NCBI GenBank assembly: GCA_965178525.1
Contig: CBCXVS010000137.1
Span: 1-19,046 of the forward strand
DNA length: 19,046 nt
Origin: an uncultured bacterium
GTDB lineage: Bacteria; Tectomicrobia; Entotheonellia; Entotheonellales; Entotheonellaceae
Reading direction: 5' to 3'
The notes below the pieces were generated by a model. That model was not told the origin of the DNA. It did no database searches and saw only the letters and a list, made by a program, of their open reading frames with translations. Positions 34-14,932 of the stretch are shown piece after piece. Made by a program: the position numbers and the translations under genes. The number at the start of each line of letters is the position of its first letter. Positions within the stretch are counted from its first letter, which is position 1.

Positions 34-2811
34 CTACTTAACCCTCCGCCTATTCTGCCAGGGGAACTTCGGGCTAACGTTGGCATTGAGGCTGTCGCAC
101 CGGGCGTAAACCAACAATTGCGAGTGGTCGGGATCGTCGAAGTTGATCCGATCGCGGGCGGAACTGAGCGTCCGGGACATCGACGTATTGATATTGCTCT
201 GTGACAGGAAACGGGAGAACGCCGTATCCTCTTTTTGCGCCAGGTGGGAATGGATGAGGAGGCGCAGATAGCGGCTGCGCAAATCGCTGGAACTCCGAAA
301 GCGTTTCTGCAACGGCAGGCCGAAATCTTCGGCATTGATCCCTTCGCTGGTGTGATCATTGTGGCAGTTGAAGCATTGCCGCACCAGGGCTTGATAGGCT
401 TTTTGCCCGGCCACGTTGCTAGTATAGCCGTTGCCTTGCGTGTCAAACGCGATACGGTCGGAGAGACCTACCATGGACTGCGTGGTGGAGTAGGTGATCA
501 ATGCCTGCATCTGGGCCGGTGTCCAGTGTTGGGTGTGGTCGTATTGCGCGTTGATGGTCGCGATGGCGTCGACGATGCGCGGATCAAATGTGGCGCCATA
601 ATCTCCGAAACGCGTCAAGTCGCGGCTACGGTCATCCGGGAATCCCGGCTCTTCCGGCCGACTCAGGTCATCGCCCAACAGCAAGGCCCACAGGAACGGC
701 GCGGCATGATAATTGTCATCAAAGCCCATGGGATTAATGGAATTGTTGATATACGGCGCCACCTCCTCCGTTTCACGGAGTTTGTGTGCGCCGCGGACGA
801 GGGCGAGCCAGGCCGGACTCTGGGAGCGTGCGCCGGTCGGGTTCGAGAGATCCAATGGGTGCCGCGAGTCGTGGCAATCGGCACAGGCGAGGCCGCTGCG
901 GGTCTCGGTCGTGGTAAACAGAGGCATGATGTCCCGGTGGAAGTCCGGCGCCGCGCTCTCGGCATCGTAGCCGCTCGCATCCTGCACGCCGGAGAGGTCG
1001 TCACCTTGCATCTTCTGCGAGGCGACGGTCTCCAACGCCTTGTATCGATCAATGTTTTCCTGCGAGCGTTCCTGATGACACTGATTACACGCATTGACCC
1101 GATTAGGCACGAAGCTGATCTCTTGCCGCTCCGCGCGGATCGGAATGTAGAGGTACGAATCCTGATAGGGAAAACTTTTGTAGAGTTTCCAGATGTAGAG
1201 ACCGGGGTTCAGGATGGCGCCGATGGAGCCGTCATTTTCGAGTTCCAGGAAGGTGCTGGCGGGTACCGACAATTCCGGTGAGCTGCTCCACCCCAATTTG
1301 CCAATGGCCTGGGAACTCGAAAAGGTGTGGGAGGGGATAAAAAATTTCAGTCGGAGATCCTCGGGCAACATCCCATTGGTTTGGTGTTGCACGCCGTTGT
1401 CCGATTGCGTCAAATTTTGCACGAGAAAGCCGGCATGGCTATTAAGGGCGAGGTTGGTGAACGAGGTGCGGCTTTCGCTGATATCGCCTTCGTTCGGCGC
1501 GGCGATGCGGCGCTCTGGCGGATAGAAGCTGCGCGGCTGAACGAAGTGGAGATCGTCATGGCTCATGATGAGCGTGCGGACGCCAGCGGTGGTGTCACCG
1601 TTTAGGTCGGTGGGATAGTCCTTGAGGTAAATGCCGTAGCTCCGCTCCTTGGTCTCCCGATAGGCATAGACCATACTTTCGTCGTTGTAATGCTCTGGAT
1701 TACGGGCGATATGCATCCCATCATCGTGCACTTCCAAAGGGACGCGGTCGCTGCGGAGATCGAAATGCTGCCGCCGCGTCATCATGACGCTGCCGTCGGC
1801 AACGAAGCTCGCGCGCCCCTGGGCCATGAGAATATACCGGTTGTAGGGGCCAGACTTGATTTCCCGGGCTTGGAAGATATTGGCGGCGCTGCGGTCGGTG
1901 GCGGATTCCTGTCCAAAGAAGGTAAAGTTATCGCTGCCATCCACCTGGATTTTCCACAAGGCGAAGCGGTTGGTGGTCTGTTGGTGTTCCCACTGCGTAA
2001 AGACGACGAGACGCATGCCGTCCTCGAGGTCGATGGCGAGCGGTTCCGTTTGGTGTGAATTGTTGAAGCCGATGCGTTGGGTATCACCGCTTTCGGCGTC
2101 CAGAATATGGATCAGGGGTGTGGCGTCACGATCGTATTCATCGAGCAGGACGCCATCCGGCGGCCCCCCGTAATTCAGGGGGAGTTCGGATGCCTGCACC
2201 GATTTGGCGACAAACAAGACCGGGTGGCCGGTGTCCTGGTCGTCACCGACATAGGTGGGATGGATGAAATGCACGGTGTTGTCGTGCGTGATCTTGCGGA
2301 AGGTAAAGGTGGTAAAATCGAAGTCGTAAATACCCAAATGGGTATCGCCCTCACGGCGCATCGAGACGTAGAGACTCTGGCCATTGGGCGCGATGTCAAA
2401 GCTGTGAACGCGAATCTTTTCGGTGTCCTGGCAAGTTTCGTCGAGCAGGGGCAGAAGCTGCCAGCTTTGCACCGTGCCGTCTTCTAACTTCCGGGAGACG
2501 AAGAGCTTATCCTCGAAGCCATCCCCGCTATAGCCTTTGGTGGGGAAGCGCAGATCGTTGCGCTCATCGAGCTTGGACCAGCCGATATAAAAGATATCCG
2601 GATGCAGGCGCGCATCACTGGCAAACCGTGGCGGGCTTTGCGGCACGTAATCTTTGCCGTCGAGTACCGTTTCCAGGACGGCGCACTGTGTAATATCCGG
2701 CGTTCCGCCACCCTCGGGGCCGGCTCCTGTGTCGATGACCGGATTGTCTGTCCGAATACAAGCGTGTAAGACAAAGGCAAGGAGCCAGAGCAAGGGCAAG
2801 AGCCGTTTCAT
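34..2811 (-). CDS. Secreted (possible lipoprotein) c-type cytochrome. N-terminal beta-propeller-like region, C-terminal region with three CXXCH heme-binding motifs (CNQCH, CADCH, CFNCH).
   Basis: Long ORF ending at TAG 34-36. ATG at 2811 follows AAGGA (6-nt spacer) and begins a classic signal peptide MKRLLPLLWLLAFVLHAC; the ORF-track start at 2841 lies 10 codons upstream and lacks an SD. Three CXXCH motifs seen in the translation. Plus-strand ORFs overlapping this gene are shadow ORFs. Confidence 0.8.
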   Translation of the reverse strand: MKRLLPLLWLLAFVLHACIRTDNPVIDTGAGPEGGGTPDITQCAVLETVLDGKDYVPQSPPRFASDARLHPDIFYIGWSKLDERNDLRFPTKGYSGDGFEDKLFVSRKLEDGTVQSWQLLPLLDETCQDTEKIRVHSFDIAPNGQSLYVSMRREGDTHLGIYDFDFTTFTFRKITHDNTVHFIHPTYVGDDQDTGHPVLFVAKSVQASELPLNYGGPPDGVLLDEYDRDATPLIHILDAESGDTQRIGFNNSHQTEPLAIDLEDGMRLVVFTQWEHQQTTNRFALWKIQVDGSDNFTFFGQESATDRSAANIFQAREIKSGPYNRYILMAQGRASFVADGSVMMTRRQHFDLRSDRVPLEVHDDGMHIARNPEHYNDESMVYAYRETKERSYGIYLKDYPTDLNGDTTAGVRTLIMSHDDLHFVQPRSFYPPERRIAAPNEGDISESRTSFTNLALNSHAGFLVQNLTQSDNGVQHQTNGMLPEDLRLKFFIPSHTFSSSQAIGKLGWSSSPELSVPASTFLELENDGSIGAILNPGLYIWKLYKSFPYQDSYLYIPIRAERQEISFVPNRVNACNQCHQERSQENIDRYKALETVASQKMQGDDLSGVQDASGYDAESAAPDFHRDIMPLFTTTETRSGLACADCHDSRHPLDLSNPTGARSQSPAWLALVRGAHKLRETEEVAPYINNSINPMGFDDNYHAAPFLWALLLGDDLSRPEEPGFPDDRSRDLTRFGDYGATFDPRIVDAIATINAQYDHTQHWTPAQMQALITYSTTQSMVGLSDRIAFDTQGNGYTSNVAGQKAYQALVRQCFNCHNDHTSEGINAEDFGLPLQKRFRSSSDLRSRYLRLLIHSHLAQKEDTAFSRFLSQSNINTSMSRTLSSARDRINFDDPDHSQLLVYARCDSLNANVSPKFPWQNRRRVK

Positions 2812-3021
2812 GATCCGTCCTTTTAGTGCGCGACATGACATACGTCTTCATAGCATGCGGTAAGGGGAGGGCAAAAAATGTGCCATTTTTTTTGTGTATG
2901 TGGTGAACGCCGCACCTATCAGGCGAGGAACATTGGCGAGGTGCGCCGGGAGGACGACGTGATGCAAGGAGTTATCAGGAAAGGAGAGGTGTCAGGGAAA
3001 TGGCGGCATATGCCAAGAAAA

Positions 3022-4614: not shown

Positions 4615-5418
4615 GTGGCAGCTACTATGACCGCAAAAGCCAATCCCTGGATGATATGTTCCACGCCGCAGCCACAGGCGCGCTTGCGTCTTTTCTGTTT
4701 TCCGTACGCGGGAGGCGGCGCCTCAGTGTATCGTACCTGGTCTGACGTGTGCCCGCCGGAAATAGAGCTGTGGCGTATTCAACTTCCCGGACGGGAACCC
4801 CGGCTTAGCGAATCGCTGTTTACCCGTTTGACACCGCTGGTGCAGACACTGGCCCCGATCCTCCGCCCGCATTTGCATAAGCCGTTTGTGTTCTTCGGCC
4901 ATAGTATGGGGGCACTGGTCGCCTTCGAACTCGCCCGGCGCCTGCGTCGGCATGACCGTCTCAGCCCGCTGCATCTATTCGTATCGGCGCACCGGGCGCC
5001 CCAGCTCCCGGATCCCGACCCACTCACCTACCCCTTGTCTACACCGGCGTTCATCGAGACCTTGCGCCGCTTGCAGGGGACGCCAGAGGCCATCTTGCAC
5101 AACGCGGAACTCATGGAGTTGATGTTGCCTGTCGTCCGTGCCGATTTTGAGCTCTGCGAGACGTATACCTATACGACAGCGGCGCCTCTGCCGTGCCCGA
5201 TTTCGGCCTTTGGCGGCTTCCAAGATGAGAAGGTAAGCCGTGACGAACTTGCCGAGTGGCGCGCGCAGACGCAGAGCGCCTTCATCCTGCGGATGTTTCC
5301 CGGCAACCATTTTTTCTTACACAGTAATCAGGCGTTACTATGGCGCGTGCTCTTCCGGGAGCTGGAGCCGCGCCTGCAGCAGATGACGGAGGAGGGCGTG
5401 TCGACCGAGTCGAGGTGA
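4615..5418 (+). CDS. Type II thioesterase (alpha/beta-hydrolase editing thioesterase of NRPS/PKS systems).
   Basis: LRLFCFPYAGGGASVYRTW N-terminal signature and GHSMG nucleophile elbow. Starts with GTG 4615 (in-frame ATGs at 4627 and 4651); no clear SD. Stop TGA 5416-5418. Confidence 0.88.
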   Translation: MAATMTAKANPWMICSTPQPQARLRLFCFPYAGGGASVYRTWSDVCPPEIELWRIQLPGREPRLSESLFTRLTPLVQTLAPILRPHLHKPFVFFGHSMGALVAFELARRLRRHDRLSPLHLFVSAHRAPQLPDPDPLTYPLSTPAFIETLRRLQGTPEAILHNAELMELMLPVVRADFELCETYTYTTAAPLPCPISAFGGFQDEKVSRDELAEWRAQTQSAFILRMFPGNHFFLHSNQALLWRVLFRELEPRLQQMTEEGVSTESR

Positions 5419-5523
5419 TATGAAGGGCCATTCCGTTTTCCACTTGTAGACGATTCCCCTTTTGGCAAAGGGGGCGAGGGGGAGAAAGGGAGGCGTTCCG
5501 GTTATCTATGCATAGGAGTTGTC

Positions 5524-5607
5524 ATGCCGCGCCTGCGGCACCCGGAAATAAGGAAAAACGTCTTTTACTCAGTCCTCAGTCCTCAGTCCTCAGTCCTTTT
5601 TTCATAG
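5524..5607 (+). CDS. Candidate upstream/leader ORF, 27 codons (MPRLRHPEIRKNVFYSVLSPQSSVLFS). TAG stop 5605-5607 overlaps the AGGAG SD of the downstream gene.
   Basis: AGGAG + 5 nt + ATG. The ATG lies in the 5' arm of the hairpin. The frame reads through the heptamer repeats and ends in CATAGGAG. The equivalent uORF exists in copy 2. Confidence 0.3.
   Translation: MPRLRHPEIRKNVFYSVLSPQSSVLFS
5569..5596 (+). repeat. Perfect heptanucleotide tandem repeat (TCAGTCC)x4.
   Basis: Read directly. The 14953-14973 copy has 3 units; the 4401-4428 copy has ~2. Confidence 0.95.
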
Positions 5608-5610
5608 GAG

Positions 5611-6228
5611 ATGATGATGGCAACGGCGCCGCGAGACGACCAAGAAGATACCACCATCTACAAAGTCGTGATGAATCACGAAGAACAGTATTCGATCTGG
5701 CCGGCCGACCGCGACAACCCACTTGGCTGGCAGGATGTGGGCAAGAGTGGGCTGAAGCCGGAATGCCTGGATTACATCGAGGAAGTATGGACGGATATGC
5801 GTCCGCTCAGCCTGCGCAAACAGATGGAGGAGGCGGCGCAACGCCCCGCGCCCCCTCCGCCGCCTCCGAGTGAGGAACCCGTGGCCGCTGACAGCCGGAC
5901 GGGCGACTCGCTTGTCGACCGCTTGAGCGAGGGGGACCATGCAGTGGAGGTTGGCCTGCGGCCTGACCGGACGGCGCAAGCCTTCAAAGAGAGTCTCGAC
6001 CGTGACTATGTCCATATCAAGTTCACACAGACCCAGGGCGGCACCGAGTTGGGTGTACGCCTAGACCGGGAACGAAGTGATTTGAGTCAGGCCGATTTTG
6101 AAAGCGCCTCTGGAACCGTGCATGTGGAAGGGGGGCTGACTCTGAACTATGTGTCCGTGCGATGCGTGGCGGATATTGATCTGACGACGCTCAGTGGGCG
6201 GGGCCATCTGGAGCCGGTGGAAGCGTAA
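5611..6228 (+). CDS. MbtH-like domain protein with a Pro-rich linker and an uncharacterised ~105-aa C-terminal domain.
   Basis: Residues ~15-75 carry the MbtH signature ([49 protein letters not shown]), then [12 protein letters not shown], then a domain with no motif I recognise. Three consecutive ATGs at 5611-5619; the third gives 6-nt SD spacing. Stop TAA 6226-6228. Confidence 0.85.
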
Positions 6229-6304: not shown

Positions 6305-6470
6305 CCTGGACAAAATTAGCGACATCGTTTTTCCAGAGGAAAAATATGAATTTAATTCTGTTCGGGCACTTAGGCGACATTTCCCGCCGGCTCTGTCCGC
6401 GTTCCTTCTATTGTGCTGTACTGAGCCAACGTATGTGGGGAGAGGCTGGGAGTTCGGGAGGGCAGGGAAG

Positions 6471-7256
6471 ATGCTCATCAGCGGTGCCTGCGTTGCTGCC
6501 GGGATCATGTATGCGGGACTCAAAACCTTGATCAGGCAGCGATCGCAACGAAAAGCGGCTAGGATTATTACGCAAAATGGTCAGGCCAACCAGACATCCT
6601 CGCCCGTGATCGAGGAAGATCGCCACCAGGAGATCGAGGTCCAGCTCTCTCGCGCCTGTGCGATTTCCTCAATTGCTGTAGGTTTATCGATCGTCAGTGC
6701 GTTCGGTTACCCCTTGTTCGGCGTCCTCAGCGCACCTCTCACGGTGTATGGCGCGATTCCCGCCTTCGAACAAGCCTCCGCTGCCATGCTCACCGAAAAT
6801 CGAAAATATATGTCGGTCGTGTGGTCCGCAGTTGTCATTGGCTCCCTCGCCACTGGGCGTTTCTTTTCGGCCGCAGTCCTTACCTGGCTCGATGATTTTG
6901 TCGTCCTGTGGTCCAATCGTTTGTCTTTGTTCAACAAACTCATTGTGGGCGAATTGGAACATCGCTACCAGCTCCTCACCCAACTCTACGGCGTCAAGCC
7001 CGCGTCCGTCTGGGTGCTGGTCGATGACGTGGGGCTCGAGATTCCTTTCTCGGAATTGCAAGTCGGTGATACGGTGGTAATGAGTACAAAAGAAGTGATT
7101 CCCGTCAGGGGTACGGTTGTCGACGGCACCGCGAGAGTCGTCCGGTGGCGGCCGGGCGGAAATGGACAACCCGAGAACAAAGAGATAGGGGATCAGGTTA
7201 CGGCCTCGACCTTGATCCTATCGGGGAGTATTAAAGTGCAAGTGGAAAGTCTCTGA
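6471..7256 (+). CDS. N-terminal fragment of a P1B-type (heavy-metal) P-type ATPase: transmembrane helices plus an actuator (A) domain. TGES motif degenerate (RPGGNG); no phosphorylation/nucleotide-binding domains. Possible pseudogene or repurposed truncated protein.
   Basis: A-domain signature LEIPFSELQVGDTVVMSTKEVIPVRGTVVDGTARV...ASTLILSGSIKVQV matches the CopA/ZntA actuator domain. Ends at TGA 7254-7256 with no DKTGT downstream in any frame. ATG 6471 is preceded by a purine-rich SD (gggagggcagggaag); the ORF-track start is an upstream TTG at 6411. Confidence 0.7.
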   Translation: MLISGACVAAGIMYAGLKTLIRQRSQRKAARIITQNGQANQTSSPVIEEDRHQEIEVQLSRACAISSIAVGLSIVSAFGYPLFGVLSAPLTVYGAIPAFEQASAAMLTENRKYMSVVWSAVVIGSLATGRFFSAAVLTWLDDFVVLWSNRLSLFNKLIVGELEHRYQLLTQLYGVKPASVWVLVDDVGLEIPFSELQVGDTVVMSTKEVIPVRGTVVDGTARVVRWRPGGNGQPENKEIGDQVTASTLILSGSIKVQVESL

Positions 7257-7287: not shown

Positions 7288-7542
7288 ATGGCTTTTGTAA
7301 GTTCTTTTTTCATCGTTGGAGGCGTTGGCGCTGTCATTTGGCAACTCAATCGCCGCAAGCAGAGACGGCTGTCAGGACAAAACGGCGACGAGGCGGTTCC
7401 CGCTGCAGCTCCGAGCGCGCCACCTGATGCCTCCCCAGCCCCAGCCGCACCGTCACCTGACCAACACGATGCGCCCGAGGCCTCTAGCGAGGAGCCTGAC
7501 GAGCCCTCTCCGCCACCGGAGACGGCGGCGCCAGAACGCTAA
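7288..7542 (+). CDS. Small single-pass membrane protein with an acidic Pro/Ala-rich disordered tail (84 aa).
   Basis: AGGAGG (7274-7279) + 8 nt + ATG 7288. N-terminal hydrophobic helix FVSSFFIVGGVGAVIWQL, then RRKQRR, then a PAAAPSAPPDASPAPAAPSPD... tail. Stop TAA 7540-7542. Confidence 0.6.
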   Translation: MAFVSSFFIVGGVGAVIWQLNRRKQRRLSGQNGDEAVPAAAPSAPPDASPAPAAPSPDQHDAPEASSEEPDEPSPPPETAAPER

Positions 7543-7641: not shown

Positions 7642-8166
7642 TTATCTCTTGTGCATGATCGCCACGGGAGGCGGTTGAAAATCACGTGGCCACTGTGTCC
7701 TGTCCGTGTAGTGAGCGCCTTGCAAATCAGTCGATGCCTCGCCTTCCGTTGTGGTCAAGACCGCGTTGCTAAGATTGGCTCTGTGTAGTCTGGCGCCGTT
7801 CAAGAGGGCGTGTTTCAGGTTCGCACGGACCAACGTGGCAAAATCCAGACACCCGCCGCTGAGCATGGCTGCCGAGAGATCAGCGCCACTGAGATTGGCC
7901 TGGGTCAGATGGGCCCCTGACAGGCTGGCATGTACCATGGCGTCCACCAAATGGGCACGAATCAAGTTAGCGCCTGACAAATTGGCGCCCGACAAATTGG
8001 CGCTGCTCAAGTTAATCGAACGCAAATCCGCACCACGCAAATCCGCACCGCTCTGCTGCGTGGACGGCTCGCCCAGGTTGGCGCCCGAGAGATTGGCGCC
8101 AACCAGGTTGGCTCCTACCAAAAGTTGGCATGCATCAATTGCGCGCCGCTCAGGTTCACGCCCCAC
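7642..8166 (-). CDS. Pentapeptide-repeat protein, C-terminal portion. Likely the 3' part of a single gene with 8115-8786, disrupted by a 1-nt frameshift.
   Basis: Tandem A(N/D)LxG pentapeptide units. GTG start at 8166 overlaps the upstream ORF by 52 nt and has a stop 9 codons upstream in frame. Inserting one nt after AAC (~8122) fuses the frames into a continuous array ...MHANLLVGANLVGANLSGANL. Contains 15-nt tandem duplications at 7976-8005 and 8021-8049. Confidence 0.7.
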   Translation of the reverse strand: MGREPERRAIDACQLLVGANLVGANLSGANLGEPSTQQSGADLRGADLRSINLSSANLSGANLSGANLIRAHLVDAMVHASLSGAHLTQANLSGADLSAAMLSGGCLDFATLVRANLKHALLNGARLHRANLSNAVLTTTEGEASTDLQGAHYTDRTQWPRDFQPPPVAIMHKR

Positions 8167-8786
8167 AATGCCGCCCCAATCAGACGCACGCTATTCATGA
8201 CCGCTGCCCTGAGGTTGACGTTCGTGAGATTGACGCGCGTGAGAATCGTTCCGGTCAGGTCGGCGCCCGAGAGGTCAGCGCCATCGAGAATCGCTGCTGC
8301 CAAGTTGGCGTCTCGTAAATCGGCGCCAACGAATTTGGCTCGCGATAGGTTGGTTCTCACCAGGTCCGCGCCGCGTAGATTCGCCCCCGAGAGATCGGCG
8401 CCCGAGAGGTCGCTGCCCCGAAGGCGTGCCTGGGACAATAAGGCTCTGCTAAGATTGGCGTTACGGAGATCTAGGCCGCTTAACTCTCTCCCGCGTAGAT
8501 TGACGCCGATGCACGTCGGAGGACACCCGGCTGGCAAGGCGGCAGACTGGCACCCCGCCACGATGGCCAGGAGCGTCGCCATCGCCATGACCGGCCGGCA
8601 CACGTAAAGCGCCAGTTTGAGGGCCACAAGGTTTACAACATCAAGGTAAACAGGTGGCCACTCGGCGGTACGCCGTACGATGGCGATCAATCCTTGTAGA
8701 TGCGCCGGCGGCATAGGGACGCCGTTGTTGTCCATGACCTCTTGCCTCTCGGGGAACGGTGGCGGCGGTTTAAGGCGGCGGCGCAT
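8115..8786 (-). CDS. Membrane-anchored pentapeptide-repeat protein, N-terminal portion of the probable fused gene. TM helix, then a CPPTC-IGVNLRGR motif, then the repeat array.
   Basis: Paralogous to 8887-9807 (shared TM + CxPxCxGxNLRGR + pentapeptide architecture). Start uncertain: ATG 8786 lacks an SD; internal ATG 8735 (MDNNGV) is an alternative. Stop TAG 8115-8117. Confidence 0.75.
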   Translation of the reverse strand: MRRRLKPPPPFPERQEVMDNNGVPMPPAHLQGLIAIVRRTAEWPPVYLDVVNLVALKLALYVCRPVMAMATLLAIVAGCQSAALPAGCPPTCIGVNLRGRELSGLDLRNANLSRALLSQARLRGSDLSGADLSGANLRGADLVRTNLSRAKFVGADLRDANLAAAILDGADLSGADLTGTILTRVNLTNVNLRAAVMNSVRLIGAALWGVNLSGAQLMHANFW

Positions 8787-8886
8787 GCATCCGGAGAGCC
8801 GGGGGCAAGCGGGTCATGGCATCCACATGGATGCCTCGCGTCTCGGCCTGACGACACACCTTGCTCCGTTGCTGCGGATTTAAGCC

Positions 8887-9807
8887 TTACAACACCGGAT
8901 CCAGTCCCAAATGGTAACACTCATGCTGTGAGACGAAGACGCGAACTGCCGTGAGATCTGCCGACCTCAAGTCAACGCTGTGGAGGACGGCGCCGACTAA
9001 CAGCGCGCCGATTAAGTTGGTTTTATACAGGTTGGCAGACGCCAATGTGCTCCCGGCCAAGCTCGCGCCGGCGAGGTTGGCCTGCGTCAAGTCCGCTCCC
9101 GTCAGGTTGGCAAGGTTCAGCCATGCCCCCGAGAGATCGGCTTTGGTTAAGCGGCTGCCGCTTAAATCGGCTCGGCTCAGGCGACTCCCGCTCAATGTGG
9201 CTTCCCGCAAATCTGCCCCGATCAGACGTGCCGCGACCAGTTCAACCCCTGAGAGGTTGGCGCCACGCAAAAGCGCTTGGGTCACATCCGCCCCGTTGAG
9301 GATGACGCCGTCAAGTCGCACTTGCGTTAAGTCAAGCCCCGCCAAGTCGGCACGAATCAGGCGCGCGCCGCGCATATCGGCGCCACGCAGGATGGCTCCA
9401 CCCAAGTCCGCATCCGTCAAATCCGTCCCGAGCAGGGTGGCCTCTGTCAAGTCCGCATGTTTTAGATTCGCGCCAATGAGGCTGGCGCCTGAAAAATCCG
9501 CCGCGATCAGTTTGGTCGCACTCAGATCCGCCCGGCGCAAATTCGCTTCGATGAAGCCGGTTCCGCTCAAATCGAGACCATGCAAGTTGCGGCCTCTCAG
9601 ATTCATACCGACACAGTCCGGGGAGCATCGAACCGTGTGCACGATCCAAGAGCGTGCCACAAGAATCATGGCGCCGACAAGCGCCAGGGCGATAGCAATC
9701 CGAAGGTAGAGCATGCGTTTTAAAGTCGCACCCGATTGACCCAGCAGTATGGTACAGAGAACAATCAAGCCGACGAGAGCCGAGAGGATCACGGGTATAT
9801 GTATCAT
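8887..9807 (-). CDS. Membrane-anchored pentapeptide-repeat protein (two N-terminal TM helices, CSPDC-VGMNLRGR motif, ~40 pentapeptide units).
   Basis: 306-aa ORF. AGGAG immediately abuts ATG 9807 (0-nt spacing), so the start is somewhat uncertain. Stop TAA 8887-8889. Confidence 0.85.
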   Translation of the reverse strand: MIHIPVILSALVGLIVLCTILLGQSGATLKRMLYLRIAIALALVGAMILVARSWIVHTVRCSPDCVGMNLRGRNLHGLDLSGTGFIEANLRRADLSATKLIAADFSGASLIGANLKHADLTEATLLGTDLTDADLGGAILRGADMRGARLIRADLAGLDLTQVRLDGVILNGADVTQALLRGANLSGVELVAARLIGADLREATLSGSRLSRADLSGSRLTKADLSGAWLNLANLTGADLTQANLAGASLAGSTLASANLYKTNLIGALLVGAVLHSVDLRSADLTAVRVFVSQHECYHLGLDPVL

Positions 9808-9971: not shown

Positions 9972-10730
9972 TTAGCTCTCCGATTGGGATGCTGCTGTGG
10001 ACGGTGACACGGCTGCCGGCCCTTGTCCCACTTCCTGCAGTGCCCGCTTGAATGCCTCGTTGTCTTTTTCGGCGACCTCGTCGATCGCCCGCAAGATGAG
10101 TTGTGGCTTCTCGTTTGTTGGCACGGCATCGTAATCCGACAGCGTCACGGACGTCAAATTATTCTCCACGAGTCTGACGAAAAGTGCTTGCCCAAAGGCT
10201 TGATTCCGCCTGCTGTCCGGATTGCGCTCAAATGCCAGGAGTTGCTTGTAAACATTCAGGTCATACTGCGATACGGCCGCTTGCTGGCAGGCCCAGCAAT
10301 ACTGCAACACCACCTGACTCATATCTTGCGCCAGTTGAGGATTTTTGTTGAGTTTGCCCTCCACTAATTCCCCAAGTTCAAAGCCCATATCTGAACAGAA
10401 TATCGCTAAGTGGTCGGTGAAGGCCTGAAGGCTGTTCTCAGAGAGCGACGCGATCCAATTTCTCACGTCCTCATTGGCTGCAGGCGCATTGGCGACCCAC
10501 GTGTGAAACTGCTGCGGTAACTCGGCGGATTGCCGGTTCATCACTTTATCGTACCAGCCTTGGAGCCAACTCGTCCCGGCCTCAATACCACTGCTGATCG
10601 TTTCTTGTATCGGCTCGGTCATGGACCCCCAGGTCGGTAGTTGCTCCTGCTTCTGCAAACGCCTATCCACGACGATGGACGCCGCCCCAACGACGACCGC
10701 GAGAAGGGCCAGAGGGACAAGTACCATCAT
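9972..10730 (-). CDS. Hypothetical protein with an N-terminal TM anchor and a ~230-aa helical soluble domain of unknown function.
   Basis: 252-aa ORF. AAGGAG SD 4-7 nt upstream of a tandem ATGATG. Start overlaps (ATGA) the stop of the 30-codon upstream ORF. Stop TAA 9972-9974. Confidence 0.75.
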   Translation of the reverse strand: MMVLVPLALLAVVVGAASIVVDRRLQKQEQLPTWGSMTEPIQETISSGIEAGTSWLQGWYDKVMNRQSAELPQQFHTWVANAPAANEDVRNWIASLSENSLQAFTDHLAIFCSDMGFELGELVEGKLNKNPQLAQDMSQVVLQYCWACQQAAVSQYDLNVYKQLLAFERNPDSRRNQAFGQALFVRLVENNLTSVTLSDYDAVPTNEKPQLILRAIDEVAEKDNEAFKRALQEVGQGPAAVSPSTAASQSES

Positions 10731-10819
10731 TCGTCTCCTTTTCTGAAGAACTTCCTATCCACGGCGATCGACCCGATCGTTGCCACAATGCATACAAGCA
10801 GCACAGATAGGATTCCCAT
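10727..10819 (-). CDS. Small hydrophobic peptide, 30 aa (MGILSVLLVCIVATIGSIAVDRKFFRKGDE), translationally coupled to the downstream 252-aa gene.
   Basis: Perfect AGGAGG (rc of 10825-10830) + 5 nt + ATG 10819. One TM-length hydrophobic stretch plus a basic tail. TGA stop overlaps the ATG of the next gene. Not in the ORF track (<60 aa). Confidence 0.45.
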   Translation of the reverse strand: MGILSVLLVCIVATIGSIAVDRKFFRKGDE

Positions 10820-10948: not shown

Positions 10949-12028
10949 CTACGGAGGCGGTCTTGATGTCATCAAGTCGGGCGATGAGGCATCCATCGAC
11001 AGCGGCCGTTGTCTGCCGTCATGTTCATCTAGTTTCGGGAGGGGCAGGATCAACGGCGTGTGACTGGGTACCAGTATGGCGTGCAGCTTTGGTGACAACT
11101 TCTCAATATATTGATAGGTCAACAAATTGGGATTTTGTTCCAGCGCTTTTGCGATCAATGCTAAGGCATCCGCTTGGCCTTCGGCCTCGATTTTGATCGC
11201 GTCCTTTCGGCCTGCAGCCATGTTGCGCATCTGTTGGGCTTTATGTAGCGCTTCCTCCTTTCCTTCTAAGGCAATTTGTTTGCGCTCAATCGACTCGGCA
11301 TACTCCGCTGTAAAGGTAACATCACGAAGGAGGACCTGGTCCAGAATGAAACCTCTGTTCGCAAATTCTGTCCGCAAGATCCGATCGAGCGTGGTTTCTA
11401 GGTCTCTGAGGTCCGAACTATTGACTTCTCGCACGGTAAATTGTGAGACTTGCGTGCGGACGAAGCCCCGCGTCACCGGTCGTACCAGATCGACGATATA
11501 ACGGTTTTGCCAGTCCGTATGTACCGAAACGGCCTGTTCGGTGTCAACACGGAAGATGACCGAGCAATCCAGGCGTACTTCTTGGCCATCGCTGGTGCGG
11601 GCCCGGATCGAATCATCACCCAGCTCCGCCCCTTCGGCAGGTCTGCCAGACATGGTATAGGTTTGCCAGTAGATGGGATACGAGACATCACGCTCGAGAA
11701 AAGGCAGAATCCAATGCAACCCGGCTCGTAACGGCTGTGGCCGGATGCCGCCTGGAGAGACGAGAGAGACGACCACCGCCACGTAGGGGGGTTGCACAAA
11801 AACCAGGGCGGCGCTGAGTAGACTAATGCCAAGGATCAACAAAAACGGCAGCATGACGCGAGAGGAAAGCAACCGCAGAATACCGAAACGAACCCCCTGT
11901 CGCCACCCGGTGGCGATACACATGTAGATCGCATATATTGCAAAGAGCCACCATAAGATGACGGTGGTATATCCCAACAGTGTATCGAATGTGGTGATGG
12001 TGAAGGAGCCTGTCCCTTGCATAGGCAC
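10949..12028 (-). CDS. SPFH/band-7 domain membrane protein (stomatin/prohibitin/HflK-C family).
   Basis: Two N-terminal TM helices followed by an SPFH domain (…QVSQFTVREVNSSDLRDLETTLDRILRTEFANRGFILDQVLLRDVTFTAEYAESIERKQIALEGKEEALHKAQ…). GTG 12028 or ATG 12022 start. Stop TAG 10949-10951. Confidence 0.88.
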   Translation of the reverse strand: MPMQGTGSFTITTFDTLLGYTTVILWWLFAIYAIYMCIATGWRQGVRFGILRLLSSRVMLPFLLILGISLLSAALVFVQPPYVAVVVSLVSPGGIRPQPLRAGLHWILPFLERDVSYPIYWQTYTMSGRPAEGAELGDDSIRARTSDGQEVRLDCSVIFRVDTEQAVSVHTDWQNRYIVDLVRPVTRGFVRTQVSQFTVREVNSSDLRDLETTLDRILRTEFANRGFILDQVLLRDVTFTAEYAESIERKQIALEGKEEALHKAQQMRNMAAGRKDAIKIEAEGQADALALIAKALEQNPNLLTYQYIEKLSPKLHAILVPSHTPLILPLPKLDEHDGRQRPLSMDASSPDLMTSRPPP

Positions 12029-12149: not shown

Positions 12150-12177
12150 ATTATAGAGACCACTTCGCATAAGTCAA
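12150..12177 (-). promoter_or_regulatory. Near-consensus sigma70 promoter on the minus strand: -35 TTGACT (rc of 12172-12177), 16-nt spacer, -10 TATAAT (rc of 12150-12155), oriented toward the SPFH gene.
   Basis: Hexamers and spacing read directly. ~115-nt leader to start 12028. Striking in a GC-rich genome. Confidence 0.45.
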
Positions 12178-12220: not shown

Positions 12221-13330
12221 CTACGAGGTTGGACTCGCTTTGTTACTGTAGCGCTTCTGCCATTCGTGCAGAAGGCGGCGGCGATTCGCCGATGCCCATG
12301 GCACGTCTGTGCCGAACCGCCGCTCTGCCGCCGCCTCGGGAACGCCTTTGGGATGGGGGACATCCGTCTTCATGGCCGTGACGGCATGGTATTTCCAGTC
12401 GACTCGCATGGCACGCGCACTGAGGGTCCAGTCGAGAAAGGTCATCGCGGCGGGTTTGATGCGGGGGGTTTTGAGTAGGGCGCTAGCCGCTATGTCCCAA
12501 GCCGCGCCCTCGGCGGGAAAGACGATGTCAATCGGCGCCTCCTGGTGGTTTTCGATGATCGCTATGCCGGCACCGCCATACGAAATCCCGATGGGGACAT
12601 CCCCGCTTGCGGCCAACTGGCAGGGCTTTTCGGAGGAGGGGAGGTACTGCGCGATATTCTGATGCAACGCATCGAGAAAGACCCAGCCCTTGGCCTCTCC
12701 CAGATGATGTAGGATCGCCGCCATCACGAGGTAGCCGATCTTGGATACGGTAGGATTCGGCATGACGATATGCCCGCGATAGTCTGGCTTGATCAAATCT
12801 TGCCAGGACAAAGGCACGTCCGCGTCACGCTTCGCCGTCTTGTTCTTCAAGGCATCGGAATTGACGCAAAAGGCCGACATCCGCACCTGCATACCGACCC
12901 AATACGGTGGGGTATGGGTATCCCGGAACAGCGGGGGCACATCCGCAAGCCCCTTGGGCGCGTAGGGGCGGAGCATGCCGTGCCATTCCAGGAGCATCAA
13001 AAAGGTCGCGGATACGCCCCACATCACGTCGGCTTGCAGCGTGTTGCGCTCGGCATACAACCGCTTCACGAGCGTGTCAGATGAGGCTTCGGTGACGACG
13101 GTGACGTCGATCTTGGGATAGGTGGCGCGAAATGTTGCCAGATCATGTGCGAGCCGGTCAGAGTGCCGCGCCGTATAGACAGTGATCGTCCCCGCCTCAG
13201 GTGAGTTGGGTTCGTGGCGTGTGCAGCCACCCGCCGTGATCAGGATGACGAACGCGACCGCACGCACCAGGACGCTATACATCGACGATCTCGCGCCCCT
13301 GGCGGCGCCAGAGGCAACACATCCGGGCAT
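12221..13330 (-). CDS. ABC-transporter substrate-binding protein, family 1 (FbpA/AfuA-like Fe3+-, thiamin- or 2-AEP-type); probable lipoprotein.
   Basis: Signal/lipobox-like N-terminus (…VAFVILITAGGC), then ITVYTARHSDRLAHDL…ADVMWGV, typical of this family. Start ATG 13330 is 3 nt after the upstream gene's stop; alternative ATG 13282. Confidence 0.8.
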   Translation of the reverse strand: MPGCVASGAARGARSSMYSVLVRAVAFVILITAGGCTRHEPNSPEAGTITVYTARHSDRLAHDLATFRATYPKIDVTVVTEASSDTLVKRLYAERNTLQADVMWGVSATFLMLLEWHGMLRPYAPKGLADVPPLFRDTHTPPYWVGMQVRMSAFCVNSDALKNKTAKRDADVPLSWQDLIKPDYRGHIVMPNPTVSKIGYLVMAAILHHLGEAKGWVFLDALHQNIAQYLPSSEKPCQLAASGDVPIGISYGGAGIAIIENHQEAPIDIVFPAEGAAWDIAASALLKTPRIKPAAMTFLDWTLSARAMRVDWKYHAVTAMKTDVPHPKGVPEAAAERRFGTDVPWASANRRRLLHEWQKRYSNKASPTS

Positions 13331-13333
13331 CTC

Positions 13334-14932
13334 CTATGGGTCTATCCACACACTATGGTAGCTTCCGTTATCGTATCCCGTCGGCGCCGGCACCCAGCCT
13401 TTCAACTTCTTGGCCATGAACCAGGGGCCGGTCGGCCAGCCCAAGGTCACGATGGGCGTCGCGCCCTTCAAGATACGGCGCTGATACGCGTGAAAGATCG
13501 CCTGACGTTTGCTCTCATCAAGCGCACGCAACCCCTGTTCGTGCAATTGATCGAGTTCAGGCATCTGCAGCTTGCCGTAATTCCGTGGGGCATTTGACGT
13601 CCAGGTAAACGAAAACAGCGTACTTGGATCCATCATAATCAACCCCGTTCCCTGCACCCCGATCATGGTAAAATCGCCCCGGGCCCAAGCGGCAAAGCCG
13701 GCGGCGCTTTCCCAGGTCCGAAGGTTGGCTCGGATGCCGATCGGCTTCAACTGTTGGATGACCAAAGAGGCCACATCCACGTAGTTTCCCACGGAGCGTA
13801 CGGCGACTTCAATATCCAGGCCATCGGGATAGTGCTTGGCCACGAGGCGTTTGGCTTCGGCAATATCCGGGCCTTTGGGCTGCCGACAGCCAGGCGCTTG
13901 CAAGACTTCTTCTTTGGGGAGGGCATAGTCGCCAAACACTTCTGATGGCATAATCACACACGGTACAATAAACCCATCATATGCTCTGGCGGCAATCTCC
14001 TGGCGATCGATTGCCAGGTAGACGGCCCAACGCATCTCTGGATTGTCGAACGGGGGTTTGGTGCTATTCATATGGATCTGCGAGATACCCCCAGGGCCGG
14101 ATTGCTGATACTGCAGATCCTTGCGGGCCTTGCGGATCTCTTCGATTTGCTTGCTATTGAGCGGCGGCCAGCCATACCAGAAATCGACTTTCCCAGCCTT
14201 AATCGCCGCGATTTGCGTGGCGCGCGACGTGATGATGTACTGCTTGACGCCATCCAAATAGGGCATGCCCTGAATGAAGTAGTTGGGATTACGCTCCCAC
14301 TCGATGATATTGCCACGGACGTATTTCTTCAACTTGAACGGTCCCGTGCCAATCTGACTATCCGGCTGGGTCAGATCGCCGTCGCGTTCCAGAATATGCT
14401 TGGGTAGGATCTTGCACCACGCCGAGGCCAGAGCCGACAGGATAATCAGATTGGGGAACTTGAGCTGCACGATCACGGTAAAATCGTCCGGCGCTTCCAC
14501 GCGCTCGATCATCGGACGCAGCATGGAACCGCATCGCGGGCTGCGGAATTCCGGATCGAGCATCCGTTGCAAACTGTATACGGCATCGGCCGACGTGAAG
14601 GCGGCCCCATCATGCCATTTGACGCCCCGGCGCAGATGGAAGGTATAGACCGTGCCGTCATCCGAAACCTCCCAGCGCTCGGCGAGATCCGGGCTGACCG
14701 TCTTGGGTTTTTCCGGACCCCATTGCAGCAAACCGCTGTAGAGCCCAACCACCGATTGCGACACGGCAAGTGGCGTCTCGGTATGCAGGTCCAGACGCGC
14801 CGGGTCGGCATAATTGAACCAGTTCAAGATGCCGCCGCGTTTCGGTGTGTCCTCTCCCCGGGCACTTCCGAGTCCCAGGGTCCATAGCGCGACGATGCTC
14901 ACGAGAACGACATAGTGCAGATGGCGGCGCAT
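13334..14932 (-). CDS. ABC-transporter substrate-binding protein, family 5 (DppA/OppA/NikA-like peptide/nickel/metallophore type); secreted.
   Basis: Signal peptide MRRHLHYVVLVSIVALWTLGLGSA, then GGILNWFNYADPARLDLH…LYSGLLQW (SBP_bac_5 pattern); 532 aa. AGGAGG + 5 nt + ATG 14932. Stop TAG 13334-13336. Confidence 0.9.
   Translation of the reverse strand: MRRHLHYVVLVSIVALWTLGLGSARGEDTPKRGGILNWFNYADPARLDLHTETPLAVSQSVVGLYSGLLQWGPEKPKTVSPDLAERWEVSDDGTVYTFHLRRGVKWHDGAAFTSADAVYSLQRMLDPEFRSPRCGSMLRPMIERVEAPDDFTVIVQLKFPNLIILSALASAWCKILPKHILERDGDLTQPDSQIGTGPFKLKKYVRGNIIEWERNPNYFIQGMPYLDGVKQYIITSRATQIAAIKAGKVDFWYGWPPLNSKQIEEIRKARKDLQYQQSGPGGISQIHMNSTKPPFDNPEMRWAVYLAIDRQEIAARAYDGFIVPCVIMPSEVFGDYALPKEEVLQAPGCRQPKGPDIAEAKRLVAKHYPDGLDIEVAVRSVGNYVDVASLVIQQLKPIGIRANLRTWESAAGFAAWARGDFTMIGVQGTGLIMMDPSTLFSFTWTSNAPRNYGKLQMPELDQLHEQGLRALDESKRQAIFHAYQRRILKGATPIVTLGWPTGPWFMAKKLKGWVPAPTGYDNGSYHSVWIDP

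What the first reader, a model, noticed from the sequence alone, without database searches (positions are those of the whole stretch)
7642..9807. Tandem array of paralogous membrane-anchored pentapeptide-repeat proteins sharing a Cx(2)PxC-x-G-x-NLRGR juxtamembrane motif
Three consecutive minus-strand genes encode pentapeptide-repeat (A(D/N)LxG) arrays. The first two N-termini have TM helices followed by nearly identical CSPDCVGMNLRGRNL / CPPTCIGVNLRGREL motifs, indicating recent paralogy. Pentapeptide-repeat proteins (Qnr/MfpA-like beta-helices) are usually cytosolic; membrane tethering by a conserved Cys-Pro-Cys junction is unusual. These genes head a co-directional cluster with an unknown TM-anchored protein, a small membrane-peptide ORF and an SPFH scaffold protein. 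This may be an uncharacterised membrane-associated module.
Basis: partly seen in the sequence, partly recalled or inferred. Interest (0 to 1): 0.6.

Follow-up and report, generated by a model that had tools for sequence, protein, structure and literature searches.

The report
Membrane-tethered pentapeptide-repeat pair in SPFH module
The interval holds two (not three) genes for rod-shaped pentapeptide-repeat proteins anchored on the outer face of the cell membrane; the pair belongs to a previously undescribed gene module found in dozens of Chloroflexota and Entotheonella-like genomes, and both copies here are interrupted by mutations.

Summary
The three minus-strand pentapeptide-repeat (PRP) ORFs are real, but they are two genes. 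ORF 1 (8887-9807) is a TM-anchored "type A" PRP. It is cut short by an in-frame TAA, and the 38 codons after the stop still match the C-terminal end of its orthologues. ORFs 2 and 3 (7642-8786) are one lipoprotein "type B" PRP, split by a frameshift in a T4 run.

The shared Cys motif is not evidence of recent duplication. It is an invariant C-P-P-x-C N-terminal cap, present in 87 of the PRPs found beside one SPFH subfamily.

In a genome-wide scan, 42 of 55 loci with that SPFH subfamily carry capped PRPs, usually as a pair. None of 25 loci with more distant SPFH genes do. The module also includes a small TM peptide, an uncharacterised single-pass protein and solute-binding proteins. Most loci, but not this contig, also have a C39-peptidase ABC exporter pair.

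Type A PRPs elsewhere are fused to solute-binding, pLGIC ligand-binding or LamG domains, so the beta-helix sits outside the cytoplasm.

Function is unknown. My best inference is rigid, probably disulfide-capped stalks or scaffolds for ligand-binding domains within an SPFH-organised envelope complex.

The parts
8770..9807 (-). It has two TM helices (residues 4-22 and 32-50), a CSPDC cap, about 46 pentapeptide units and a C-terminal cap. It is interrupted by an in-frame TAA at 8887-8889; the ancestral stop is at 8770-8772.
   Evidence: Pfam PF00805, E = 2e-69. Hydropathy scan. AF2 model with pLDDT 93.4: a TM helix followed by an uninterrupted four-sided beta-helix. Read-through alignments to orthologues.
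8887..8889 (-). In-frame TAA nonsense codon in the type A PRP. It aligns with Gln in the closest orthologue (L085), which is consistent with a single CAA>TAA change.
   Evidence: TAA is also the normal stop of the type B gene, so there is no sign of codon reassignment.
9589..9627 (-). N-cap motif CSPDCVGMNLRGR of the type A PRP (Cys61 and Cys65).
   Evidence: Sequence reading. Both Cys are invariant in 87/87 module-linked PRPs. In the AF2 register, P-D-C-V-G forms the first pentapeptide unit, with the second Cys at the core position (inference).
7642..8627 (-). It has a lipoprotein signal peptide, a CPPTC cap, the PRP beta-helix and a C-terminal 'TQWP' motif. It is split by a frameshift at 8120-8123. 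The likely start is GTG 8627 or ATG 8591; the upstream ATG at 8786 is probably not the start.
   Evidence: L003 4207-5136 and L085 7710-8708 are intact orthologues of 309 and 332 aa.
8120..8123 (-). T4 run that carries the frameshift (a net +2 or -1). Removing TT restores ...GAQLMHAN|LVGANLVGANL... in perfect five-residue register.
   Evidence: Sequence reading. Junction alignment to L006, L007, L010, L005, L061 and L085.
8487..8561 (-). Lipobox V-A-G-C (8550-8561), followed by QSAALPAG and the cap CPPTCIGVNLRGR (8487-8525).
   Evidence: 44 of the 91 module-linked PRP ORFs classified have a lipobox 3-16 residues before the cap.
9972..10730 (-). U252, an uncharacterised protein with one N-terminal TM helix followed by a basic stretch and a conserved helical domain (F..W, W..L, FC, L.WL, Y(C)..C, NP, ER). 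It is probably cytoplasmic.
   Evidence: No Pfam, NCBIfam or PDB match. Orthologues occur in 29 of the 55 SPFH loci and in L002, L085 and L087.
10727..10819 (-). 30-aa single-TM ORF whose stop overlaps the U252 start (ATGA).
   Evidence: A 48-aa ORF in the same position in L085/L086 is 40% identical, including the G-S-I-x-x-D-R-[RK]-F stretch.
10949..12028 (-). SPFH/Band_7 protein with two N-terminal TM helices. The SPFH domain is inferred to face outwards.
   Evidence: Pfam PF01145, E = 4e-30. 47-63% identical over its full length to the SPFH genes of L003, L005, L007 and L085. Mean K+R count is 3.0 in the inter-TM loop against 0.26 in the 15 residues after TM2, across 47 orthologues.
12150..12177 (-). 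Promoter-like site TTGACT-16-TATAAT (11 of 12 matches) in the 192-nt gap upstream of the SPFH gene.
   Evidence: This is a consensus match only; the number of sites in the region is not above the shuffle expectation.
12221..13330 (-). Solute-binding lipoprotein (SBP_bac_1/6/8/11 type; signal peptide ending ITAGG|C).
   Evidence: 37-43% identical orthologues lie in the L005, L061 and L007 loci. The same SBP type is fused to the C-terminus of the type A PRP in L020.
13334..14932 (-). SBP_bac_5 (peptide/nickel type) solute-binding protein. No ABC permease gene is present on the contig.
   Evidence: SBP5 genes also occur in the L006, L007, L008, L013 and L049 loci.

Best explanation
SHOWN.
- The interval encodes two ancient paralogues, not three genes. 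One is a TM-anchored 'type A' PRP and the other a lipoprotein 'type B' PRP.
- In both, the beta-helix begins directly after the membrane anchor with an invariant Cys-x3-Cys cap. The consensus is LP.G-C-P-P-x-C-[IVL]-G-x-N-L-x-G-[RK]-D-L.
- The pair belongs to a conserved module made of a two-TM SPFH protein, a small TM peptide, the uncharacterised single-pass protein U252, and PRP-A plus PRP-B.
- Solute-binding proteins recur nearby. In most genomes a C39-peptidase ABC exporter plus a second ABC half-transporter sits immediately upstream of the SPFH gene, together with a ~170-aa TM/beta protein.
- The module occurs in Caldilineaceae, Anaerolineae, Chloroflexia and Entotheonella/Tectomicrobia.
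- On this contig both PRP genes are interrupted, one by a nonsense codon and one by a frameshift. No ABC exporter gene is present.

INFERRED.
- The PRP helices lie outside the cytoplasm. The evidence is the lipobox on type B, the C-terminal fusions of type A to solute-binding, pLGIC ligand-binding and LamG domains, and the paired Cys.
- The two Cys probably form a disulfide. It would staple the N-terminal tail onto the first rung, closing the open end of the helix next to the membrane.
- The helices then act as rigid, membrane-proximal stalks or scaffolds about 55-60 Å long. They would carry or dock ligand-binding domains.
- They would work inside an outward-facing SPFH assembly that is coupled to the peptide exporter.
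- The copy in this window is either decaying or carries sequence errors.
For: - Gene count and lesions.
- Cap conservation: both Cys present in 87/87, P+1 in 66/87, P+2 in 76/87, and D or N at position +3 in 40/87. Only 3 of 120 generic PRP hits have the cap, and all three lie next to Band_7 genes.
- Neighbourhood: 42/55 loci with the closer SPFH subfamily have capped PRPs (38 with two or more), against 0/25 loci with distant SPFH genes; p = 1.5e-11.
- The association persists when the PRP pair is on the opposite strand, next to a ParA-like gene.
- Anchor types: 44 lipobox and 41 TM-anchored. One of each is the commonest combination.
- Fusions of type A PRPs: Peripla_BP_5/6 (L008), SBP_bac_1/6/8 (L020), Neur_chan_LBD (L012), Laminin_G_3 (L024), PBP_like_2 (L038, L061).
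- AF2 model: pLDDT 93.4, a continuous quadrilateral beta-helix directly after the TM helix. Foldseek top hits are HetL, Np275/276, Qnr, and the lumenal Rfr32, Rfr23 and At2g44920.
- ABC pair present in 50 loci. The C39 domain has an intact Q...DCG / H / D triad in most.
- SPFH topology by the positive-inside rule.
Against: - No experiment bears on any component, and the function is inferred from context only.
- The disulfide is not demonstrated. I could not read coordinates from the AF2 model, and pLDDT is only about 68 at the TM-to-cap junction.
- The outward orientation of the SPFH domain rests only on charge bias.
- The ABC exporter is missing from this 19-kb contig, and from L005, so its link to the PRPs is not obligatory.
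- Both PRP genes here are broken, so this copy may do nothing.
- 13 of the 55 close SPFH loci lack PRPs. Most of these have short flanks or are gammaproteobacterial, but L034 and L044 have adequate flanks.
- The locus set was seeded with the SPFH gene. I did not measure how often capped PRPs occur without SPFH.
Confidence: 0.55

Rival explanations
1. One reading: three recently duplicated, membrane-anchored PRP paralogues at the head of a lineage-specific cluster.
For: Three ORFs with PRP repeats are present, and two share the Cys motif.
Against: - ORF 3 has no anchor and is the out-of-frame continuation of ORF 2.
- A-type and B-type genes have separate orthologues across phyla.
- Identity between A and B is 46%, no higher than between unrelated PRPs, which run at 40-50%.
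Confidence: 0.05
2. The nonsense codon and the frameshift are sequencing or assembly errors. Both PRP genes are intact and functional in the organism. This rival concerns only the state of this copy, not what the module is.
For: - The frameshift lies in a homopolymer inside internally repetitive DNA, where polishing errors concentrate.
- Sequence after both lesions is still well conserved: 52-55% identity to L085 across the lesions, with perfect repeat register.
- The source is a 19-kb contig from an uncultured organism.
Against: - Every other sizeable gene on the contig that could be checked against an orthologue or a Pfam model (SPFH, U252, both SBPs) matches at full length, with no frameshift detected.
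- A base substitution that creates TAA in non-repetitive sequence is not a typical assembly error.
- Two random errors both landing in the ~2 kb PRP pair out of 19 kb has a chance of about 1% (inference).
Confidence: 0.3
3. The PRPs are self-protection (immunity) or decoy proteins at the membrane surface, acting against a peptide exported by the neighbouring C39-peptidase ABC transporter. This would parallel the immunity roles of McbG and AlbG.
For: - A catalytically intact C39 ABC exporter lies next to the module in 50 loci.
- PRPs serve as immunity proteins in microcin B17 and albicidin clusters (established knowledge; AlbG and the McbG-like protein appear among the fold hits).
Against: - Known PRP immunity proteins are cytoplasmic gyrase mimics, whereas these are extracytoplasmic.
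- The fusions to solute-binding, pLGIC ligand-binding and LamG domains point to ligand capture rather than shielding.
- I found no conserved precursor-peptide gene. The clustering considered only ORFs of 90 aa or more, so it could not have detected a typical precursor peptide.
- This contig and L005 keep the PRPs without the exporter.
Confidence: 0.12
4. Qnr/MfpA-like cytoplasmic DNA mimics that act on topoisomerases.
For: They share the pentapeptide-repeat fold. Weak NCBIfam hits to Qnr and MfpA models and Foldseek hits.
Against: - Scores are far below the family cut-offs (Qnr 70.9 against 240; MfpA 70 against 360).
- The proteins have a TM anchor or lipobox, paired Cys and extracytoplasmic fusion partners.
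- They are 300+ residues long and lack the Qnr loops.
Confidence: 0.02

Closest known systems
Lumenal and secreted pentapeptide-repeat proteins: Rfr32 (PDB 2f3l/2g0y), Rfr23 (2o6w), Arabidopsis TL15/At2g44920 (3n90), Caulobacter YjbI (PMC12864828), Pseudomonas PedD (PMC12997753)
   Same: - A right-handed quadrilateral beta-helix exported from the cytoplasm.
- Cysteines in an oxidising compartment. Rfr23 and TL15 have disulfide brackets (from my own knowledge), and YjbI has four Cys that were probed for disulfides.
- PedD also sits next to a periplasmic solute-binding protein gene.
   Different: - Those proteins are soluble, short (about 130-190 aa), single genes, and their disulfides are C-terminal.
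- Here the helix is 230-550 residues long and is tethered by a TM helix or a lipid.
- It starts with a CPPxC N-cap that no solved PRP matches. All PDB hits align only to profile positions 16 and above.
- It comes as an A/B pair and is linked to an SPFH gene.
HglK of Anabaena PCC 7120 and the SV2 luminal domain (Pfam PF23894)
   Same: PRP domains attached to integral membrane proteins on the non-cytoplasmic side. HglK is needed to place envelope glycolipids that are exported by an ABC/HlyD-type system (from my own knowledge; HglK is cited in PMC12997753).
   Different: - HglK has four TM helices and no reported CPPxC cap or SPFH partner.
- SV2 is a eukaryotic MFS transporter.
- No sequence relationship beyond the repeats was tested. 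There was only a faint LD_SV2 hit, E = 0.007.
HflK/HflC-FtsH and SPFH-NfeD operons
   Same: A membrane-anchored SPFH protein encoded next to, and probably organising, a membrane machine. Here the SPFH gene directly abuts an ABC exporter gene in most loci, with a 1-50 nt gap or an overlap. The SPFH domain is inferred to face outwards, as in HflK/C.
   Different: - There is a single SPFH gene with two TM helices.
- No FtsH or NfeD turned up among the conserved neighbours.
- The partners are PRPs, U252 and a C39 ABC exporter. I found no paper describing this combination.
NHLP/NHLM bacteriocin export cassette (TIGR03794, TIGR03796, TIGR03797)
   Same: The same three-part architecture: a C39-peptidase ABC, a second ABC half-transporter and a small HlyD-like membrane protein. 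TIGR03796 is the best NCBIfam hit for ABC1.
   Different: - Scores are far below the equivalog cut-offs (173 against 853; 122 against 709).
- The ~170-aa protein matches no family.
- I did not identify any NHLP or Nif11 precursor.
- The cassette is absent from this window.

Membership tests
Pentapeptide repeat family (Pfam PF00805) | Tandem A(D/N)LXX units detected by the family model above its gathering score | tested here: met
   229, 121 and 101 bits against a cut-off of 20.2 for the three ORFs.
Pentapeptide repeat family (Pfam PF00805) | Right-handed quadrilateral beta-helix (Rfr fold) | tested here: met
   AF2 model with pLDDT 93.4 and one strand every five residues from residue 33 to 262. 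Foldseek E = 5e-14 to HetL, plus Np275/276, Qnr, MfpA and Rfr32. This rests on a predicted structure, not a solved one.
Qnr/MfpA/McbG-type topoisomerase-protecting PRPs | Score above the NCBIfam family cut-off | tested here: not met
   Qnr 70.9 against 240; MfpA 70 against 360; QnrB 67 against 460.
Qnr/MfpA/McbG-type topoisomerase-protecting PRPs | Cytoplasmic, soluble protein | tested here: not met
   Two TM helices on type A and a lipobox signal on type B. Orthologues are fused to extracytoplasmic SBP, pLGIC ligand-binding and LamG domains. This is a sequence-based inference; no localisation experiment exists.
Secreted/lumenal PRPs (Rfr32, Rfr23, TL15, YjbI) | N-terminal export signal with the PRP domain outside the cytoplasm | tested here: met
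   Lipobox V-A-G-C after a hydrophobic segment in type B, and a TM anchor in type A.
Secreted/lumenal PRPs (Rfr32, Rfr23, TL15, YjbI) | Soluble after signal cleavage, with a C-terminal helix pair held by a disulfide bracket (Rfr23/TL15) | tested here: not met
   The proteins stay membrane-tethered. The conserved Cys pair is at the N-terminus. The cap profile finds no counterpart in any PDB PRP.
Bacterial lipoproteins (type B PRP) | Lipobox [LVI][ASTVI][GAS]C at the end of a signal peptide | tested here: met
   ...MATLLAIVAG|C in the window. 44 of the 91 module-linked PRP ORFs classified have a lipobox 3-16 residues before the cap. Lipidation itself cannot be tested here.
SPFH/Band 7 (PF01145) | SPFH domain above the gathering score | tested here: met
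   105.6 bits against 23.6.
SPFH-NfeD or HflK/C-FtsH systems | A conserved NfeD or FtsH partner gene | tested here: not met
   Unbiased clustering of the neighbours in 59 loci gives ABC, PRP, U252, a small TM/beta protein, ParA, a P-type-ATPase-like gene and SBPs. No NfeD or FtsH cluster appeared. Individual ORFs were not all scanned against Pfam.
NHLP/NHLM bacteriocin export ABC cassette (TIGR03796/TIGR03797) | Equivalog score cut-offs; presence in this window | tested here: not met
   173 against 853 and 122 against 709 for the L007 ABC genes. tblastn of four ABC proteins against the window finds nothing.

The most novel reading that the evidence does not exclude
The module may be a previously undescribed envelope machine of Chloroflexota and Tectomicrobia. 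In this reading an outward-facing SPFH assembly surrounds a C39-peptidase ABC exporter. A heteromeric pair of disulfide-capped PRP beta-helices serves as a rigid extracytoplasmic stalk that presents interchangeable ligand-binding heads: solute-binding domains, pLGIC ligand-binding domains or LamG. That would be a new receptor and scaffold architecture, and the first defined role for extracytoplasmic pentapeptide-repeat proteins.
Probability: 0.25. Interest if true: 0.8.

Novelty: new variant of a known kind. Interest (0 to 1): 0.55.

Why it matters
Pentapeptide-repeat proteins number in the tens of thousands. A biochemical role is established only for the cytoplasmic gyrase-directed ones.

This finding defines a recognisable extracytoplasmic subclass. 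Members have a membrane anchor followed by an invariant CPPxC N-cap, and they occur as an A/B pair. Their gene partners are fixed: a two-TM SPFH protein, an unknown single-pass protein, a small TM peptide, and usually a C39 ABC exporter. Their fusion partners are informative: solute-binding, pLGIC ligand-binding and LamG domains.

That gives concrete, testable hypotheses for PRP function and for what a bacterial SPFH protein organises. The test organisms could include a relative of the cultured Anaerolinea thermophila, since the L037 MAG carries the module.

For this particular contig the practical message is about annotation. The 'three genes' are two interrupted genes.

Tried and rejected
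1. Exact-sequence look-ups of window proteins to find the source genome found nothing on record.
2. A search of the 5.8-billion-protein database with a 45-residue cap profile returned only fragments shorter than 80 aa, so it was uninformative.
The ranking was dominated by long generic PRPs whose repeat matches sum up. Only four new capped proteins were seen, so family size could not be estimated.
4. I considered that the N-terminal extension of ORF 2 ('AHLQG...TAEWP') was the displaced C-terminus of gene 1. I rejected this: the in-frame read-through aligns without gaps and scores 24.7 bits, while the ORF 2 frame scores -2.3.
5. I considered that the 281-aa E1-E2 ATPase fragment (6411-7256) was a truncated pseudogene and therefore a sign of regional decay. 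I rejected this: L086 has a stand-alone 262-aa gene that aligns over its full length at 39% identity.
6. U252 has no Pfam, NCBIfam or PDB relative.
7. Literature searches for PRP with SPFH, Band 7, C39, HlyD or solute-binding proteins found no description of the module.
8. The AF2 output gave no coordinates, so I could not measure the Cys-Cys distance.
Full report
**1. What is in the interval**

Three minus-strand ORFs occupy exactly the stated coordinates: 8887-9807 (306 aa), 8115-8786 (223 aa) and 7642-8166 (174 aa). All three are strong matches to Pfam Pentapeptide PF00805, at 229, 121 and 101 bits against a cut-off of 20.2.

- ORF 1 has two hydrophobic helices (residues 4-22 and 32-50), followed by CSPDCVGMNLRGR.
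- ORF 2 has one hydrophobic segment ending in a lipobox (LLAIVAG|C). Eight residues later comes CPPTCIGVNLRGR.
- ORF 3 has no hydrophobic N-terminus.

The raw observation is therefore real. The motif is C-x-P-x-C, that is Cys-x3-Cys, and not Cx(2)PxC.

**2. Two genes, both interrupted**

ORF 2 and ORF 3 overlap by 52 nt in different frames. At the overlap the DNA reads gcc aac tttt gg tag. Dropping two T from the T4 run (8120-8123) gives ...GAQLMHAN-LVGANLVGANLSGANL..., in perfect five-residue register. The corrected 315-320-aa product aligns end to end with single intact genes in other genomes. The junction matches Entotheonella '...VSLVGAN-LSGANLVGANL' and L085 '...AQLLGAN-LSGANLVGANL'. Overall identity to L085 is 55.5%.

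ORF 1 ends at a TAA (8887-8889), and the reading frame stays open for 38 more codons. That segment, GLNPQQRSKVCRQAETRGIHVDAMTRLPPALRMHAPPP, aligns without gaps to the C-terminal cap of type A orthologues. It ends at the same position as the Entotheonella proteins. It scores 24.7 bits against an HMM of those caps. No shuffle out of 1000 exceeded 5.6 bits, and the other two frames score -2.3. In the closest orthologue (L085) the codon at the stop position encodes Gln, so a single CAA>TAA change would suffice. TAA is used as an ordinary stop elsewhere in the window.

I cannot tell whether the lesions are real or are sequence errors. Every other sizeable gene on the contig that could be checked against an orthologue or a Pfam model (SPFH, U252, both SBPs) matches at full length with no frameshift detected. 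I therefore lean towards real lesions (about 0.7 real, given 0.3 for the error rival).

**3. The two genes are ancient paralogues**

ORF 1's best match in every related locus is the TM-anchored gene. The best match of ORF 2 and ORF 3 is the lipoprotein gene. I call these type A and type B.

Identity between A and B within the window is 46% over 140 residues. That is no higher than identity to unrelated cyanobacterial PRPs, at 40-50%. The duplication therefore predates the split of Caldilineaceae, other Chloroflexota and Entotheonella.

**4. The cap is the family signature**

I collected every PRP ORF from 80+ related loci and anchored them on the first Cys. This gives:

(L-P-x-G)-C-P-P-x-C-[IVL]-G-x-N-L-x-G-[RK]-D-L

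Both Cys are present in 87 of 87. P+1 is present in 66, P+2 in 76, and D or N at position +3 in 40.

Among the 120 best generic PRP hits, only three carry the motif. All three lie beside Band_7 genes.

In the AF2 model of ORF 1 the TM helix is followed directly by an uninterrupted quadrilateral beta-helix (pLDDT 93.4, pTM 0.84). The strand register makes P-D-C-V-G the first pentapeptide unit, so the second Cys occupies the inward-pointing 'L' position. A disulfide to the Cys four residues upstream would staple the tail over the open N-terminal end of the helix. This step is inferred. I could not read model coordinates, and local confidence at the junction is only about 68.

No solved PRP contains this cap. 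A profile of the cap region matches PDB PRPs only from profile position 16 onwards, which is the repeat part.

**5. The neighbourhood is conserved**

The contexts of the three capped hits already showed solute-binding protein, Band_7 and PRP genes together. L003 reproduces the window's order: SBP, SPFH, PRP-A, PRP-B.

I then scanned one genome per species (GTDB) with an alignment of the SPFH protein, a query that is blind to PRPs. It returned 80 loci. Most are Chloroflexota: Caldilineaceae, Anaerolineae and Chloroflexia. Three are Candidatus Entotheonella and a few are Gammaproteobacteria.

I mapped stop-to-stop ORFs against seed proteins:

| SPFH group | Loci | With capped PRPs | With two or more PRPs |
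|---|---|---|---|
| Closer to the window (about 41-63% identity) | 55 | 42 | 38 |
| More distant | 25 | 0 | 0 |

Fisher p = 1.5e-11. Most of the 13 misses have less than 2 kb of downstream flank or are gammaproteobacterial.

The PRPs remain next to the SPFH gene even where they sit on the opposite strand beside a ParA-like gene. That argues for a functional link rather than simple operon inheritance.

Of the capped PRPs, 44 have a lipobox and 41 a TM anchor. One of each is the commonest combination.

**6. Other members of the module**

- **U252 (window 9972-10730).** This is an N-terminal TM helix, a basic stretch and a conserved helical domain. It is present in 29 of the 55 loci, and in L002, L085 and L087. 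It matches nothing in Pfam, NCBIfam or the PDB.
- **The 30-aa TM ORF (10727-10819).** Its stop overlaps the U252 start. It has a 40%-identical counterpart in the same position in L085 and L086.
- **An ABC pair.** Unbiased all-against-all clustering of the neighbours found it in 50 loci, usually abutting the SPFH gene. It consists of a ~950-aa C39-peptidase ABC with an intact Q..DCG / H / D triad, and a ~735-780-aa partner.
- **A ~170-aa TM/beta protein**, found in 26 loci.
- **A P-type-ATPase-like gene**, found in 13 loci.

The ABC genes resemble the NHLP bacteriocin exporters in architecture only. Their scores are far below the equivalog cut-offs. None is present on this contig.

The window instead has two solute-binding proteins directly upstream of the SPFH gene. 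The SBP_bac_1/6/8 one has orthologues in the L005, L061 and L007 loci. A near-consensus sigma-70-like site lies between it and the SPFH gene.

**7. Topology and likely role**

Type A PRPs in other genomes carry C-terminal extracytoplasmic ligand-binding domains:

| Locus | C-terminal domain fused to type A PRP |
|---|---|
| L008 | Peripla_BP_5/6 |
| L020 | SBP_bac_1/6/8/11 (the same type as the free SBP in the window) |
| L012 | Neur_chan_LBD |
| L024 | Laminin_G_3 |
| L038, L061 | PBP_like_2 |

Taken with the lipobox on type B and the paired cysteines, this places the PRP helix outside the cytoplasm. It also links it, in Rosetta-stone fashion, to solute-binding proteins.

The SPFH protein has two TM helices in 45 of 50 orthologues. 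Mean K+R is 3.0 in the inter-helix loop against 0.26 just after TM2. This suggests an outward-facing SPFH domain, as in HflK/C. That is an inference.

My best mechanistic reading, at roughly 0.3 confidence for this part, has two elements. First, the A/B pair forms rigid, capped, membrane-proximal stalks or scaffolds that carry or dock ligand-binding domains. Second, they work within an SPFH-organised complex that in most genomes is coupled to a peptide-processing ABC exporter.

An alternative is a surface immunity or decoy role against the exported peptide. A Qnr/MfpA-type cytoplasmic role is excluded by the topology evidence and by NCBIfam scores.

**8. Comparison with what is known**

Extracytoplasmic PRPs are not new. 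Examples are Rfr32, Rfr23 and At2g44920, secreted YjbI (PMC12864828), PedD next to an SBP gene (PMC12997753), HglK, and the SV2 luminal domain.

What I found no description of is the following combination:
- the membrane-anchored, CPPxC-capped subclass;
- its occurrence as an A/B pair;
- its fixed association with a particular SPFH subfamily, U252 and a C39 ABC exporter.

Literature searches for these combinations returned nothing relevant. The library does not cover subscription journals.

**9. Verdict**

The conserved membrane module is real. Recent paralogy and the claim that tethering is unusual are not supported.
- The finding is a new variant of known kinds, of moderate interest (0.55).
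- The copy in this window is probably degenerate.

Noticed in passing
window 6411-7256 (+): A 281-aa ORF that contains only the N-terminal TM region and part of the actuator (E1-E2_ATPase) domain of a P-type ATPase. It is not a local truncation: L086 has a stand-alone 262-aa gene that aligns over its full length at 39% identity. Full-length relatives (710-830 aa) lie beside the module in 13 loci, and the one I read lacks the usual CPC motif. A conserved 'half ATPase' is odd.
   Followed up: partly
L001 1330-9277; L012 11934-20903; L013 11933-20997: In three Caldilineaceae/Chloroflexota loci a block of four genes lies between the SPFH gene and the PRP pair: a guanylate/adenylate cyclase, an MscS-type channel with a cNMP-binding domain, a PBP_like_2 protein and a stand-alone Neur_chan_LBD protein. 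In these loci the type A PRP itself ends in a Neur_chan_LBD domain. This looks like a signalling variant of the module.
   Followed up: partly
L018, L026, L027, L037, L039, L046-L048, L054, L056 (about 1.2-3.5 kb after the SPFH gene, minus strand): A ParA/MinD-like ATPase gene follows the PRP pair on the strand opposite to the SPFH gene in 10 of the listed loci (ParA-like genes occur in 12 of the 55 close loci overall). In L002 it is followed by a U252-like protein (U276). The reason a ParA-type ATPase accompanies extracytoplasmic PRPs is unexplained.
   Followed up: no
L085 1350-1535 and 3834-3995: Two small ORFs (61 and 53 aa) flank the 715-aa ABC gene. Both contain a '...(L/V)RAG|(A/Y)' stretch that could be a double-glycine-type cleavage site for the C39 peptidase. 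They are possible cargo precursors. I did not check them in other loci.
   Followed up: no
window 4615-6228 (+): A type II thioesterase (PF00975) is followed by an MbtH-like protein. The MbtH domain (residues 10-58) is extended by about 145 residues that give a weak CBF_beta hit. These are NRPS accessory genes, but no NRPS is on the contig.
   Followed up: no
window 34-2841 (-): A 935-aa ORF with no Pfam match at E <= 0.001.
   Followed up: no
window 7288-7542 (+): An 84-aa ORF: one TM helix, a basic stretch (NRRKQRR), then a Pro/Ala/Glu-rich tail. The TM-plus-basic-stretch pattern resembles the N-termini of U252 and the 30-aa ORF. It may be coincidence.
   Followed up: no
window 12221-14932 (-): Two solute-binding protein genes (SBP_bac_1/6/8 and SBP_bac_5) lie 3 nt apart, with no ABC permease or ATPase gene anywhere on the 19-kb contig. 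These are 'orphan' SBPs.
   Followed up: partly
whole window: The window is an entire public contig. The nearest relatives of its proteins are unnamed metagenome contigs (L085/L086; SPFH 63% identical), a Caldilineaceae MAG (63%) and Candidatus Entotheonella/Tectomicrobia (57-60%).
   Followed up: partly
L002 1676-2747 and 3173-4010: In this 1.97x-coverage metagenome contig the SPFH and U252 genes are each split into two or three ORFs by frameshifts. Low-coverage assemblies of this module do contain indel errors, which bears on how to read the lesions in the window.
   Followed up: no
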